The notes under the pieces: generated by a model
Databases searched by the model: none
What the model was told of the DNA's origin: nothing
The model's input: only the letters and a program-made list of their open reading frames with translations
Shown here: piece by piece, positions 26,344 through 28,057 of the stretch
Numbering within the stretch: position 1 is the stretch's first letter
Layout: every line of letters starts with the position of its first letter
Position numbers and translations under genes: made by a program
Origin: the human T2T-CHM13v2.0 reference genome, Homo sapiens
Assembly (NCBI RefSeq): GCF_009914755.1
Contig: NC_060943.1
Strand: one strand, 5' to 3'
Length of the DNA stretch: 64,000 nt

Positions 26344-26659
26344 AAAACCGTTAGACCTAGGGCTTTACCCAAAAAAATCTGTCGAATGATTAACAACCAT
26401 CTACTCACCTGGGCTACCCAAGAGGCTGAAGTGGGGGCCCCAGGTCCTTACTCGATCTTACCTTGAGAGCATCTGCTTGAGCAAAGTATGTGAGCGCCCC
26501 AATCTTTATGGGTACCCAGATGTCCATCATCTGTGCTGCAATATGGCTGAGTGGGAGGTAGCTGACCACCATCTCATGCTTGTCTGTCAGTTGAAAGTCC
26601 TTTGCCACTGCTCCTGCCATCCACGTGATCTGTAACATAAGGGACAATCCAAGGTGCCT
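26344..26659 (-). repeat. Inverted duplicate of the ACSBG2 exon 27415-27582 plus flanks (exon copy at 26462-26629)
   Basis: Reverse complement of 27385-27699; AG/GT and an open frame are retained; 5 substitutions in the exon. Confidence 0.97.
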
Positions 26660-26698
26660 TATACTGACTTATGAAAAAACAACACACACACACACACG

Positions 26699-26891
26699 CA
26701 CTCAGCCAGACTGCAGCACAGACAATGGACATCTGGGTACCCATAAAGATCGGGGCACTCACATACTTTAGGCTTAAGCACATGCTCTCAAGGTAAGATC
26801 GAATAAGGACCTAGGGCCCCCACTTCATCCTCTTGGGCAGCCCAGATGAGTAGATGGTTGTTAATCATTCGACAGATTTTTTGGGTGAAGC
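26699..26891 (+). repeat. Partial direct duplicate of the 3' half of the same ACSBG2 exon and its downstream intron
   Basis: Aligns to 27491-27681 with several substitutions and a 2-nt insertion; keeps AAG|gtaaga; lacks the acceptor. Confidence 0.95.
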
Positions 26892-27414
26892 TCCAAAAAT
26901 TTTGGGAGAATTATAGTTACCAACCCCCAGGTGTTATGATGATTAAATGACTTGGTGTTTGTAAAGTATGAAGACAGTGTCTTGGTCATAGTAGGTGCTT
27001 TATAAGTGTTTACTTAATTAGTTTATTTATTTAGCTAAATACATTTAAAATCGCCCTCCAGGCTGGGCATGGTCGCTCACATCTGTAAACCTAGCACTTT
27101 GGGAGGCTGAGGCGGGAGGTCGCTGGAGGCCAGGAGTTTGAGGCCAAGCTGGAAAACATAGTGAGACCCCCTCTCTACAAAAAAAGTTAAAAAAAAATTA
27201 GCTGGGTGTGGTGGTGTGTGCCTATAGTACCAGTTACTCAGGAGGCTGAGATGGGAAGATTCCTTGAACCCAGGAGTTTGAGGCTGCAGTGAGCTGTGAT
27301 CACACCACTGCACTCCAGTCTGGGTGAGCCCTGTCTGAAAAATAAATAAAAATTTAAAAATAAAATGGCCCTTCTATGAGGGTGAGGCACCTTGGATTGT
27401 CCCTTATGTTACAG

Positions 27415-27582
27415 ATCACGTGGATTGCAGGAGCAGTGACAAAGGACTTTAAACTGACAGACAAGCATGAGACGGTGGTTAGCTACCTCCCACTCAGCCA
27501 TATTGCAGCACAGATGATGGACATCTGGGTACCCATAAAGATTGGGGCGCTCACATACTTTGCTCAAGCAGATGCTCTCAAG
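27415..27582 (+). CDS. ACSBG2: ACSBG2 coding exon (ITWIAGAV...YLPLSHIAAQ...ADALK)
   Basis: tgttacag acceptor; AAG|gtaaga donor; 168 nt, symmetric phase 0. Confidence 0.95.
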
Positions 27583-28057
27583 GTAAGATTGAGTAAGGAC
27601 CTGGGGCTCCGACTTCATCCTCTTGGGCAGCCCAGGTGAGTAGATGGTTGTTAATCATTCGACAGATTTTTTGGGTGAAGCCCCATGTCTAACGGTTTTA
27701 TCTCTGCCCTCATCTTAATGCTCTATTTAGAAGCATTAAAAACAAGACCAGGCACAGTGGCTCAATCTGTAATCCCGGCACTCTGGGAGGCCAAGACGGG
27801 CAGATTGCTTGAGCTCAGGAGTTGAGACCAGCCTGAGCAAGATGGCGAAACCCTATCTCTACAAAAACCAATAATAATAGTAAATTTTTCTAAAAAACAA
27901 AAAACACCTGACCAAATAAAACAACTTTTTTTTTTTAACCAGCTGGCTACATTCTCCTAGTTTTTATCTTTATCCAAGTCAGGGCATCCATGTATGGTTA
28001 TGTAGATTGAACACTGAACAACCCAAGACAAAGATGTACTTGGTACTGAAAGTAAAG

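What the first reader, a model, noticed from the sequence alone, without database searches (positions are those of the whole stretch)
26344..27699. Complete inverted copy of an ACSBG2 exon ~0.7 kb upstream of the real exon: a built-in antisense arm covering both splice sites
Seen: 26344-26659 is the reverse complement of 27385-27699. It covers the acceptor region, the whole 168-nt exon, the donor and ~115 nt of intron. Inference: in the pre-mRNA it can fold into a ~315-bp near-perfect duplex that hides both splice sites. The exon is phase-symmetric, so skipping would give an in-frame protein missing the YLPLSH segment. The duplex would also be a non-Alu ADAR substrate lying on coding sequence, so recoding edits are possible.
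Basis: partly seen in the sequence, partly recalled or inferred. Interest (0 to 1): 0.85.

Follow-up and report, generated by a model that had tools for sequence, protein, structure and literature searches.

The report
Inverted ACSBG2 exon copy, lncRNA exon
An intron of the human ACSBG2 gene holds a backwards copy and a truncated forwards copy of the next coding exon; the backwards copy serves as an exon of an antisense non-coding RNA, and an effect on ACSBG2 splicing or editing is plausible but unproven.

Summary
Window 26344-26659 is the reverse complement of 27385-27699: 302 of 316 aligned columns match (95.6%, one indel). The copy covers 30 nt of acceptor-side intron, the 168-nt exon and 117 nt of donor-side intron.

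- A third, truncated direct copy lies at 26699-26895. With the inverted copy it forms a 180-bp intronic hairpin (z = -30.5) that is transcribed before the real exon.
- The inverted exon copy, 26462-26629 on the minus strand, is exactly the annotated exon of antisense lncRNA LOC105372255. Its splice sites and reading frame are intact.

The genome holds only these three copies, and no Rfam family matches the arms.

The 305-bp exon-masking duplex is the predicted energy minimum (-829 against -620 kcal/mol). It has to displace the local hairpin to form. The mirror-image duplex does not stop the lncRNA exon from being spliced.

Skipping would be in frame. Splicing control and ADAR recoding remain untested. 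A 109-nt identical run suggests gene conversion (P = 0.033). I found nothing in print on this structure.

The parts
27385..27699 (+). Source segment: 30 nt of acceptor-side intron, ACSBG2 coding exon 27415-27582, and 117 nt of donor-side intron
   Evidence: Homology limits; exon from the hub annotation; frame and phase
27415..27582 (+). Real ACSBG2 exon: 168 nt, phase 0, 56 codons, contains YLPLSH, part of the AMP-binding domain
   Evidence: Pfam PF00501 E 4.6e-5, profile positions 196-239 of 384
26344..26659 (-). Full inverted copy of the source segment (antisense arm in ACSBG2 pre-mRNA)
   Evidence: 302 of 316 columns identical; E 1.8e-144; 96% in the whole-genome search
26462..26629 (-). 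Inverted exon copy, equal to the annotated exon of antisense lncRNA LOC105372255 (NR_187772.1). Open frame, AG and GT retained, 5 of 168 nt differ from the real exon (4 non-synonymous, 1 synonymous)
   Evidence: hub annotation; Pfam PF00501 E 1.3e-4
26554..26698 (+). 145-nt loop of the local hairpin. 26554-26659 is the part of the inverted copy with no local partner (complementary to the real acceptor and the first 76 nt of the exon). It ends in a (CA)n tract, 26681-26698
26699..26895 (+). Truncated direct copy: last 92 nt of the exon, the donor, and about 103 nt of intron. It has no acceptor, a 2-nt insertion and a stop codon in the exon frame. A donor-like CAAG|GTAAGAT is retained at 26789-26799
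   Evidence: 91.4% over 197 columns to 27491-27685; alignment; private changes; sequence
26362..26891 (+). Local intronic hairpin: inverted copy paired with the truncated direct copy, 180 predicted bp
   Evidence: Fold of 26330-26920: -367.1 kcal/mol, z = -30.49, 0 of 100 shuffles fold as well
27481..27589 (+). 109-nt run identical between the real and inverted copies; candidate gene-conversion tract
   Evidence: longest identical run 109 nt; permutation P = 0.033
27439..27439 (+). Exonic A opposite C in the long-range duplex (exon codon 9, ACA Thr). Editing here would read as Ala, the state of the inverted copy
   Evidence: Mismatch list. That ADAR prefers A:C mismatches is recalled, not tested
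27062..27339 (+). Alu-like element in the spacer between the truncated copy and the real exon
   Evidence: Sub-threshold Metazoa_SRP matches; masked stretch 27013-27372 in the hub table
28574..28850 (-). Alu-like element downstream of the real exon, inverted relative to 27062-27339
   Evidence: inverted pairs I4 and I5, 75-77% complementary

Best explanation
This is a locus-specific, non-transposon triplication of one ACSBG2 exon with its splice-site flanks. The three copies are the working exon segment (27385-27699), a complete inverted copy 725 nt upstream (26344-26659), and a truncated direct copy between them (26699-26895).

Shown or annotated:
- The inverted copy keeps its acceptor, donor and reading frame. 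On the opposite strand it is used as an exon of the antisense lncRNA LOC105372255.

Predicted for ACSBG2 pre-mRNA:
- The inverted arm first zips onto the adjacent truncated copy and forms a 180-bp intronic hairpin. That hairpin also buries the truncated copy's leftover donor site.
- Once the real exon is transcribed, a 305-bp duplex covering both of its splice sites is far more stable. It must displace the local hairpin to form.

My committed reading, which is inference:
- The arrangement is a tolerated by-product of a complex duplication tens of millions of years old.
- The real exon is normally included.
- The double-stranded RNA is mostly an intronic ADAR substrate.
- Only a minor fraction of transcripts reaches the exon-masking fold. 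Those would give in-frame skipping, probably an inactive enzyme, or some exonic editing.
- The two full arms probably exchange sequence by gene conversion.
For: - Structure and uniqueness; 3 matches in the whole-genome search, all at this locus.
- No Rfam family matches the arms.
- The inverted exon copy equals lncRNA exon 26462-26629(-), with the 20 nt before the acceptor and GTAAGAT identical and the frame open (hub annotation).
- Order of folding on the plus strand: 180 pairs between the inverted and truncated copies are the minimum for transcript ends 26900 to 27500. From 27550 to 27750 the minimum switches to 162 and then up to 305 pairs between the inverted copy and the real segment.
- Local hairpin: -367.1 kcal/mol, z = -30.49, 0 of 100 shuffles as stable.
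- Minus-strand precursor: the exon copy pairs with the antisense of the real exon as it emerges, 59 pairs rising to 306, with 0 pairs to the truncated copy. RefSeq nevertheless splices this exon.
- The real exon is in the transcript the hub table marks as selected, and it encodes part of PF00501.
- Similar age of the three copies: in the roughly 104 shared intronic columns the private changes number 3 (real), 5 (inverted) and 4 (truncated).
- Gene conversion: a 109-nt identical run, P = 0.033, while the remaining 14 differences are spread over 207 columns.
Against: - In the energy model the exon-masking duplex beats the alternative (local hairpin plus free exon) by about 209 kcal/mol: -829.1 against -620.0.
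- The 106 nt of the inverted arm that sit in the hairpin loop could serve as a toehold for displacement. A substantial effect on inclusion therefore cannot be excluded.
- The folds are thermodynamic predictions on naked RNA. They ignore proteins, helicases, transcription speed and pseudoknots.
- I saw no RNA-seq, editing or small-RNA data.
- The hub table does not show whether any of the 12 ACSBG2 transcripts skips this exon.
- How often the lncRNA includes its exon is unknown.
- The identical run is only marginally significant. Part of it could reflect constraint on the real exon plus chance.
- Persistence for tens of millions of years with intact splice sites and frame could reflect selection rather than tolerance.
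Confidence: 0.55

Rival explanations
1. First reader's model. The inverted arm pairs with the real exon in a large share of ACSBG2 pre-mRNAs, hides both splice sites and causes regulated in-frame skipping (16203->32933). The duplex also serves as a non-Alu ADAR substrate that recodes the exon.
For: - The long-range duplex is the predicted energy minimum at full length: 305 bp, -829.1 kcal/mol. It is about 209 kcal/mol better than the alternative.
- The exon is phase 0 and 168 nt long, so skipping is in frame and should escape nonsense-mediated decay.
- An A:C mismatch lies on exon base 27439.
Against: - The local hairpin forms first.
- The mirror-image exon on the minus strand is spliced despite an unopposed duplex (hub annotation).
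- The exon belongs to the selected transcript and to the catalytic AMP-binding domain, so frequent skipping would waste transcripts.
- No paper found with ACSBG2 plus 'RNA editing' (2 papers, on cattle and pigeon) or plus 'exon skipping' (3 papers; the two human ones were read and are unrelated, the third is a pig-breed study judged by its listing only) reports it.
Confidence: 0.2
2. Gene-conversion partner. The main consequence lies in the DNA. The inverted arm and the real exon exchange short tracts, so pseudo-exon variants enter the coding exon (Ile>Met, Thr>Ala, Lys>Gln, Thr>Met at exon codons 4, 9, 13 and 20). This could underlie the two closely spaced missense SNPs, rs17856650 and rs17856651, that score as balancing selection. 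This reading is compatible with the best explanation.
For: - A 109-nt identical run amid 7-8% divergence elsewhere, P = 0.033.
- The arms are 315 bp long, 95.6% identical and 725 bp apart.
- The BetaScan2 paper reports two missense SNPs plotted as one dot, on a haplotype of intermediate frequency in three populations (passages read).
- Its main text contains the words paralog, duplication and mappability 0 times.
Against: - The positions and alleles of the two SNPs could not be obtained. They may lie in another exon.
- The run test is marginal.
Confidence: 0.3
3. Hairpin-RNA locus. The 180-bp intronic hairpin (26362-26891) is diced in the male germ line into small RNAs. Its 5' arm, 26455-26553, is perfectly antisense to the last 92 nt of the exon plus 7 nt of intron, so the products would silence ACSBG2 itself.
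For: - Very stable hairpin, z = -30.49.
- A perfect-match tract.
- ACSBG2 is described as possibly acting in spermatogenesis (passage).
- The architecture resembles hairpin-RNA loci made by inverted duplication of target genes (recalled literature on Drosophila and mouse oocytes).
Against: - No small-RNA data were seen.
- No miRNA family matches the arms.
- Human cells process long double-stranded RNA poorly (recalled).
- Nuclear ADAR editing would compete.
Confidence: 0.05
4. The inverted copy is a leftover exon of the lost tandem paralogue ACSBG2b, or it is a transposon or an assembly artefact.
For: ACSBG2b is reported as lost in Haplorhini (bioRxiv 10.1101/288530, passages read). Relics of a second ACSBG2-like gene do exist in this window.
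Against: - Those relics lie elsewhere (49509-49709 and 55211-55300) and are only 28-70% identical in protein.
- The inverted copy is 95.6% identical in DNA, intron included. That is far too similar for a paralogue said to date from the therian ancestor.
- Only 3 matches in the genome, and the arms are not masked as repeats in the hub table.
- A RefSeq lncRNA exon maps exactly onto it.
Confidence: 0.01

Closest known systems
Exon / editing-complementary-sequence duplexes that direct ADAR recoding (GRIA2 Q/R-site type; recalled from the literature)
   Same: An intronic stretch complementary to a coding exon in the same pre-mRNA. The predicted duplex spans the exon and a splice site, and an A:C mismatch lies on a codon.
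   Different: Here the complementary arm is a 315-nt inverted duplicate of the whole exon with both splice sites, not a short evolved complement. It lies upstream rather than downstream. No editing has been observed.
Inverted Alu pairs that loop out exons or promote back-splicing (NAR 2026, PMC13019027: abstract from the search listing and methods passages seen; the paper's main text mentions ACSBG2 0 times)
   Same: Intramolecular double-stranded RNA made by inverted repeats near an exon and proposed to cause skipping. A separate Alu(+)/Alu(-) pair does bracket this exon.
   Different: The arms studied here are not Alus and do not flank the exon: one arm is the exon itself. The expected mechanism is splice-site masking rather than looping out.
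Hairpin-RNA / endo-siRNA loci and plant MIR genes born by inverted duplication of a target gene fragment (recalled literature)
   Same: An inverted duplication of a fragment of the target gene gives a long, near-perfect hairpin with one arm antisense to the mRNA.
   Different: This hairpin sits inside an intron of the target gene itself. No small RNAs are known. The mammalian somatic and testis context is doubtful.
Tandem exon duplication giving mutually exclusive exons (recalled literature)
   Same: A local duplication of one exon together with its splice sites inside the same gene.
   Different: The complete copy is inverted, so it cannot be spliced into ACSBG2 mRNA. The direct copy lacks an acceptor and carries a frameshift and a stop.
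Inverted copy-number variants and inverted triplications (search listing only: bioRxiv 10.1101/2023.09.19.558550)
   Same: Small direct and inverted copies of one segment lie side by side. A palindrome with a short spacer suggests fold-back or template-switch replication errors.
   Different: The order here is inverted - direct(truncated) - direct, not direct - inverted - direct. The event is old and apparently fixed rather than a disease variant.

Membership tests
ADAR exon-ECS recoding substrate | Intramolecular duplex between a coding exon and an intronic complementary sequence | tested here: met
   305 predicted base pairs between 26344-26659 and 27385-27699. This is a prediction only.
ADAR exon-ECS recoding substrate | A-to-G differences between cDNA and genome at exonic adenosines | not testable with these tools
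   No RNA-seq or editing database was available. ACSBG2 + 'RNA editing' gave 2 papers, both on livestock or birds by title and abstract.
Inverted-repeat loop-out exon skipping / circRNA | Inverted repeats lie in the two introns that flank the exon | tested here: not met
   One arm contains the exon itself. A separate Alu(+) 27062-27339 and Alu(-) 28574-28850 pair does flank it.
Inverted-repeat loop-out exon skipping / circRNA | An observed skipped or back-spliced isoform | not testable with these tools
   The hub table does not list skipping isoforms. ACSBG2 + 'exon skipping' gave 3 papers, none relevant (two read, one judged from its listing).
hpRNA / endo-siRNA locus | A long hairpin formed by inverted duplication of a target-gene fragment | tested here: met
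   180-bp hairpin, -367.1 kcal/mol, z = -30.49.
hpRNA / endo-siRNA locus | 21-23-nt small RNAs from the arms, dependent on Dicer and Argonaute | not testable with these tools
   No small-RNA data. No miRNA family matches the arms.
Tandem exon duplication / mutually exclusive exons | Two same-strand copies, each with acceptor, donor and compatible frame | tested here: not met
   The full copy is on the opposite strand. The direct copy starts at exon base 77, has a 2-nt insertion and a TAA in frame.
Antisense lncRNA exon derived from a duplicated coding exon | The annotated exon borders coincide with the copy's own AG and GT | tested here: met
   Exon 26462-26629(-) in the hub table. The acceptor-side 20 nt with AG and the donor GTAAGAT are identical to the real exon.
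Relic of paralogue ACSBG2b | Divergence that fits a therian-age duplication, with introns not alignable | tested here: not met
   95.6% DNA identity including 147 nt of intron. Candidate relics elsewhere in the window are 28-70% identical in protein.
Transposable-element inverted repeat | Many dispersed copies in the genome | tested here: not met
   3 matches in the whole genome, all at this locus; the tool states that its counts are lower bounds. The arms are not in the hub's list of masked stretches.
Inverted triplication (direct-inverted-direct) | The central copy is inverted between two direct copies | tested here: not met
   The order on the plus strand is inverted, direct (truncated), direct.

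The most novel reading that the evidence does not exclude
The three copies act as a kinetic RNA switch on an essential exon. The truncated direct copy serves as a built-in decoy that captures the antisense arm during transcription and protects exon inclusion. Slow elongation, helicases or strand displacement from the 106-nt loop toehold let the much more stable 305-bp duplex form. That duplex hides both splice sites (in-frame loss of 56 residues of the AMP-binding domain) or exposes the A:C-mismatched codon 9 to ADAR (Thr to Ala). The same arms exchange variants by gene conversion, which would seed the paired missense polymorphisms that have been read as balancing selection.
Probability: 0.12. 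Interest if true: 0.75.

Novelty: new variant of a known kind. Interest (0 to 1): 0.5.

Why it matters
If the duplex forms in vivo, this is a natural, non-Alu case of about 300 bp of near-perfect double-stranded RNA laid over a constitutive coding exon and both of its splice sites. A built-in competitor hairpin and a mirror-image control on the opposite strand, the lncRNA exon, come with it. Together they make the question of how much long-range structure the spliceosome tolerates directly testable in one locus.

It also bears on three practical points.
- The reported balancing-selection signal in ACSBG2 may instead come from gene conversion out of a pseudo-exon.
- Reads and probes for this exon can be confused with the 97%-identical lncRNA exon.
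- The locus shows how antisense lncRNAs can acquire exons from inverted duplicates.

If the duplex does not form in vivo, the structure is an ordinary structural relic.

Tried and rejected
- **Transposon or dispersed repeat:** rejected. Only 3 matches in the genome. Rfam matches in 25000-29000 are all sub-threshold, none overlaps the arms, and nearly all fall on the neighbouring Alu-like elements.
- **Relic of ACSBG2b:** rejected on identity.
- **Simple tandem duplication:** rejected. There is no homology between the sequence after the truncated copy and the sequence after the real segment.
- **Inverted triplication in the order direct-inverted-direct:** the order does not fit.
- **Polarising the four amino-acid differences with the chromosome-15 paralogue:** uninformative, because those positions are not conserved. 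It does show that His and Ile of ...LSHI... are ancestral, so the truncated copy's Gln and Thr are derived.
- **Literature, all 10 searches used.** By titles and abstract starts, none describes this inverted copy.
  - ACSBG2 alone: 349 papers, 30 listed.
  - ACSBG2 + inverted: 18.
  - The two rs numbers: 1 paper.
  - LOC105372255: 1 preprint, listing only.
  - A six-term search requiring any two terms: 4,235 papers; none of the 25 listed holds ACSBG2.
  - Six phrases for inverted exon duplication: 5 papers, 4 listed, on disease variants and insects.
  - Amino-acid change names built on a recalled protein length of 666 residues: 1 unrelated paper.
  - ACSBG2 + RNA editing: 2.
  - ACSBG2 + exon skipping: 3.
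  - ACSBG2 + balancing selection: 5; passages read in 3 of them, none gives SNP positions.
- **Not available:** Pei et al. 2006, requested by a recalled DOI, is not held.
- **tblastx of 43300-60500 against the ACSBG2 span:** swamped by Alu matches and replaced by a targeted run.
- **Comparative genomics:** no primate genomes are held, so presence in other species and the age could not be tested.
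Full report
**1. The observation**

The inverted repeat exists as described. The repeat finder reports arms 26360-26659 and 27385-27684 (300 nt, 95% complementary, 725 nt apart), with a 33-nt extension to 26344 / 27699 across a 1-nt indel. A global alignment of 27385-27699(+) with 26344-26659(-) has 302 identical columns of 316, 95.6%. blastn gives 95.57% over 316, E 1.8e-144.

The arm contains 30 nt of acceptor-side intron, the whole 168-nt exon 27415-27582 and 117 nt of donor-side intron. 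The exon begins in phase 0 and has 56 codons. Leaving it out keeps the downstream frame.

A search of the window's own genome (3.1 Gb) gives 3 matches, all at this locus. No Rfam family matches the arms, and the hub's masked stretches do not include them. This is a locus-specific duplication, not a transposon.

**2.

(a) There is a third copy. 26699-26895 is a direct copy of 27491-27685 (91.4% over 197 columns). It is therefore also an inverted partner of 26362-26553 (91.2% over 194 columns). It starts inside the exon at exon base 77, next to a (CA)n tract. It has a 2-nt insertion and an in-frame TAA, but it keeps a donor-like CAAG|GTAAGAT.

(b) The inverted exon copy, 26462-26629 on the minus strand, is exactly the exon that the hub table lists for the antisense lncRNA LOC105372255 (NR_187772.1). 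The 20 nt before its acceptor and the donor GTAAGAT are identical to those of the real exon. Its frame is open. It differs at 5 of 168 nt: exon codons 4 Ile>Met, 9 Thr>Ala, 13 Lys>Gln, 20 Thr>Met, and 22 synonymous. Both versions match Pfam AMP-binding PF00501, profile positions 196-239 of 384 (E 4.6e-5 and 1.3e-4). Both scores are below the gathering cut-off, as expected for a 56-residue piece.

**3. Folding**

The minimum-energy fold of 26300-27750 as RNA is the long-range duplex, -829.1 kcal/mol, with 305 pairs between the inverted arm and the real segment.

Folding growing transcripts from 26300 shows an order of events.
- For 3' ends at 26900, 27000, 27380, 27450 and 27500, the minimum has 180 pairs between the inverted and truncated copies and none to the real segment.
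- For ends at 27550, 27600, 27650, 27700 and 27750, it has 162, 210, 259, 305 and 305 pairs to the real segment and none to the truncated copy.

The local hairpin alone (26330-26920) folds at -367.1 kcal/mol. One hundred shuffles average -162.8, giving z = -30.49, and 0 of 100 reach the observed energy.

The state 'local hairpin plus free exon' sums to -620.0 kcal/mol, about 209 kcal/mol above the long-range state.

So thermodynamics favours exon masking, but kinetically the antisense arm is already occupied when the exon emerges. The 106 nt of the inverted arm with no local partner (26554-26659) lie in the hairpin loop. They could act as a toehold, but the program cannot model that pseudoknot. 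This last step is my inference.

**4. A built-in control**

On the minus strand the situation is mirrored, without a competitor. Folding transcripts from 27750 downwards, the inverted copy (there in the sense orientation) pairs with the antisense of the real exon as soon as it appears. The counts are 59, 107, 157, 206, 253 and 306 pairs at ends 26600 to 26340, with 0 pairs to the truncated copy at all 11 ends tested.

The annotated lncRNA still splices this exon. The capacity to form the duplex is therefore not enough to block splicing, although the rate of inclusion is unknown.

**5. History (inference from the sequence)**

In the roughly 104 intronic columns shared by all three copies, private changes number 3 (real), 5 (inverted) and 4 (truncated). 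This is a star-like pattern with about 7-9% pairwise divergence. With recalled primate neutral rates, that means tens of millions of years, well before the human-chimpanzee split. No primate genomes were available to check this.

The inverted and truncated copies share an 11-nt flank motif that the real segment lacks. This suggests the palindrome arose from one extra copy and was not copied twice from the real exon.

In the exonic part, the real and inverted copies have no private change, while the truncated copy has 10 differing columns. The real and inverted copies are identical over 109 nt (27481-27589). Their 14 differences all lie in the other 207 columns. Random placement of 14 differences gives a run this long with P = 0.033. 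Gene conversion between the arms is the simplest reading, but the support is modest.

**6. Possible link to a published signal**

The BetaScan2 paper (PMC7058154; abstract and passages read) highlights two missense SNPs in ACSBG2, rs17856650 and rs17856651. They are plotted as one dot and have top scores in three populations. Its main text does not contain the words paralog, duplication or mappability.

If these SNPs are among the paralogous differences at 27426, 27439, 27451 or 27473, conversion from the pseudo-exon would be an alternative to balancing selection. I could not obtain their positions, so this is a lead and not a result.

**7. Editing**

In the long-range duplex the exonic mismatches are U:C at 27426, A:C at 27439, A:G at 27451, C:A at 27473 and a U:G wobble at 27480. 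From recalled ADAR preferences, the A:C at 27439 would be the favoured site, and editing there would read as Thr>Ala. No editing data were available. Two papers hold both ACSBG2 and 'RNA editing', on cattle and pigeon.

**8. Verdict**

The structure is real, unusual and undescribed in the searchable literature.

Its one annotated use is as an exon of the antisense lncRNA. Regulation of ACSBG2 splicing, or recoding, is plausible and readily testable, but it is unproven. The competitor hairpin and the mirror-image control weaken it.

I rate it a new variant of a known kind: intramolecular exon-intron duplexes and inverted-repeat double-stranded RNA. Interest is 0.5.

**9. Seen in passing**

Two collinear relic exons of a second ACSBG2-like gene lie on the plus strand between ACSBG2 and MLLT1.
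- 55211-55300 is 70% identical in protein to exon 2430-2518 (E 1.5e-8). It is open and has AG and GT flanks.
- 49509-49679 is 28% identical over 57 residues to an open frame at window -1807 to -1637. It has one in-frame stop, and E is 0.002 in a small search.

These fit the reported loss of ACSBG2b in Haplorhini (bioRxiv 10.1101/288530, passages read). The first exon of LOC105372255 (49709 to 49661, minus strand) lies antisense within the first relic exon.

Noticed in passing
window 55211-55300 (+) and 49509-49709 (+): Two collinear relic exons of a second ACSBG2-like gene lie between ACSBG2 and MLLT1. The first is 70% identical in protein to exon 2430-2518, is open and has AG/GT flanks (E 1.5e-8). 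The second is 28% identical over 57 residues to an upstream ACSBG2 open frame and has one in-frame stop (E 0.002). They fit the ACSBG2b paralogue reported lost in Haplorhini.
   Followed up: partly
window 49661-49709 (-): The first exon of antisense lncRNA LOC105372255 lies antisense inside the relic exon 49509-49709, within the RefSeq silencer/enhancer block 48906-50112. The lncRNA therefore starts in the dead paralogue and takes its next exon from the inverted copy of the live gene's exon (hub table).
   Followed up: partly
window 25477-25615 (+): The alternative ACSBG2 exon listed in the hub table is 139 nt long, not a multiple of three, and has stop codons in all three frames. Including it would truncate the protein. 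It looks MIR-derived, but that is from recall and was not tested.
   Followed up: partly
window 27062-27339 (+) and 28574-28850 (-): An inverted pair of Alu-like elements brackets the real exon (sub-threshold SRP matches; 75-77% complementary pieces I4 and I5). This gives a second, conventional route to looping out the same exon.
   Followed up: no
window 26681-26711 and 28058-28106: A (CA)n tract at the junction of the truncated copy is complementary to a (GT)n tract downstream of the real exon (pairs I7-I9, 83-84%).
   Followed up: no
window 27415-27582: A published balancing-selection scan highlights two adjacent missense SNPs in ACSBG2 without mentioning the paralogous inverted exon copy. 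Whether they lie in this exon could not be checked.
   Followed up: partly
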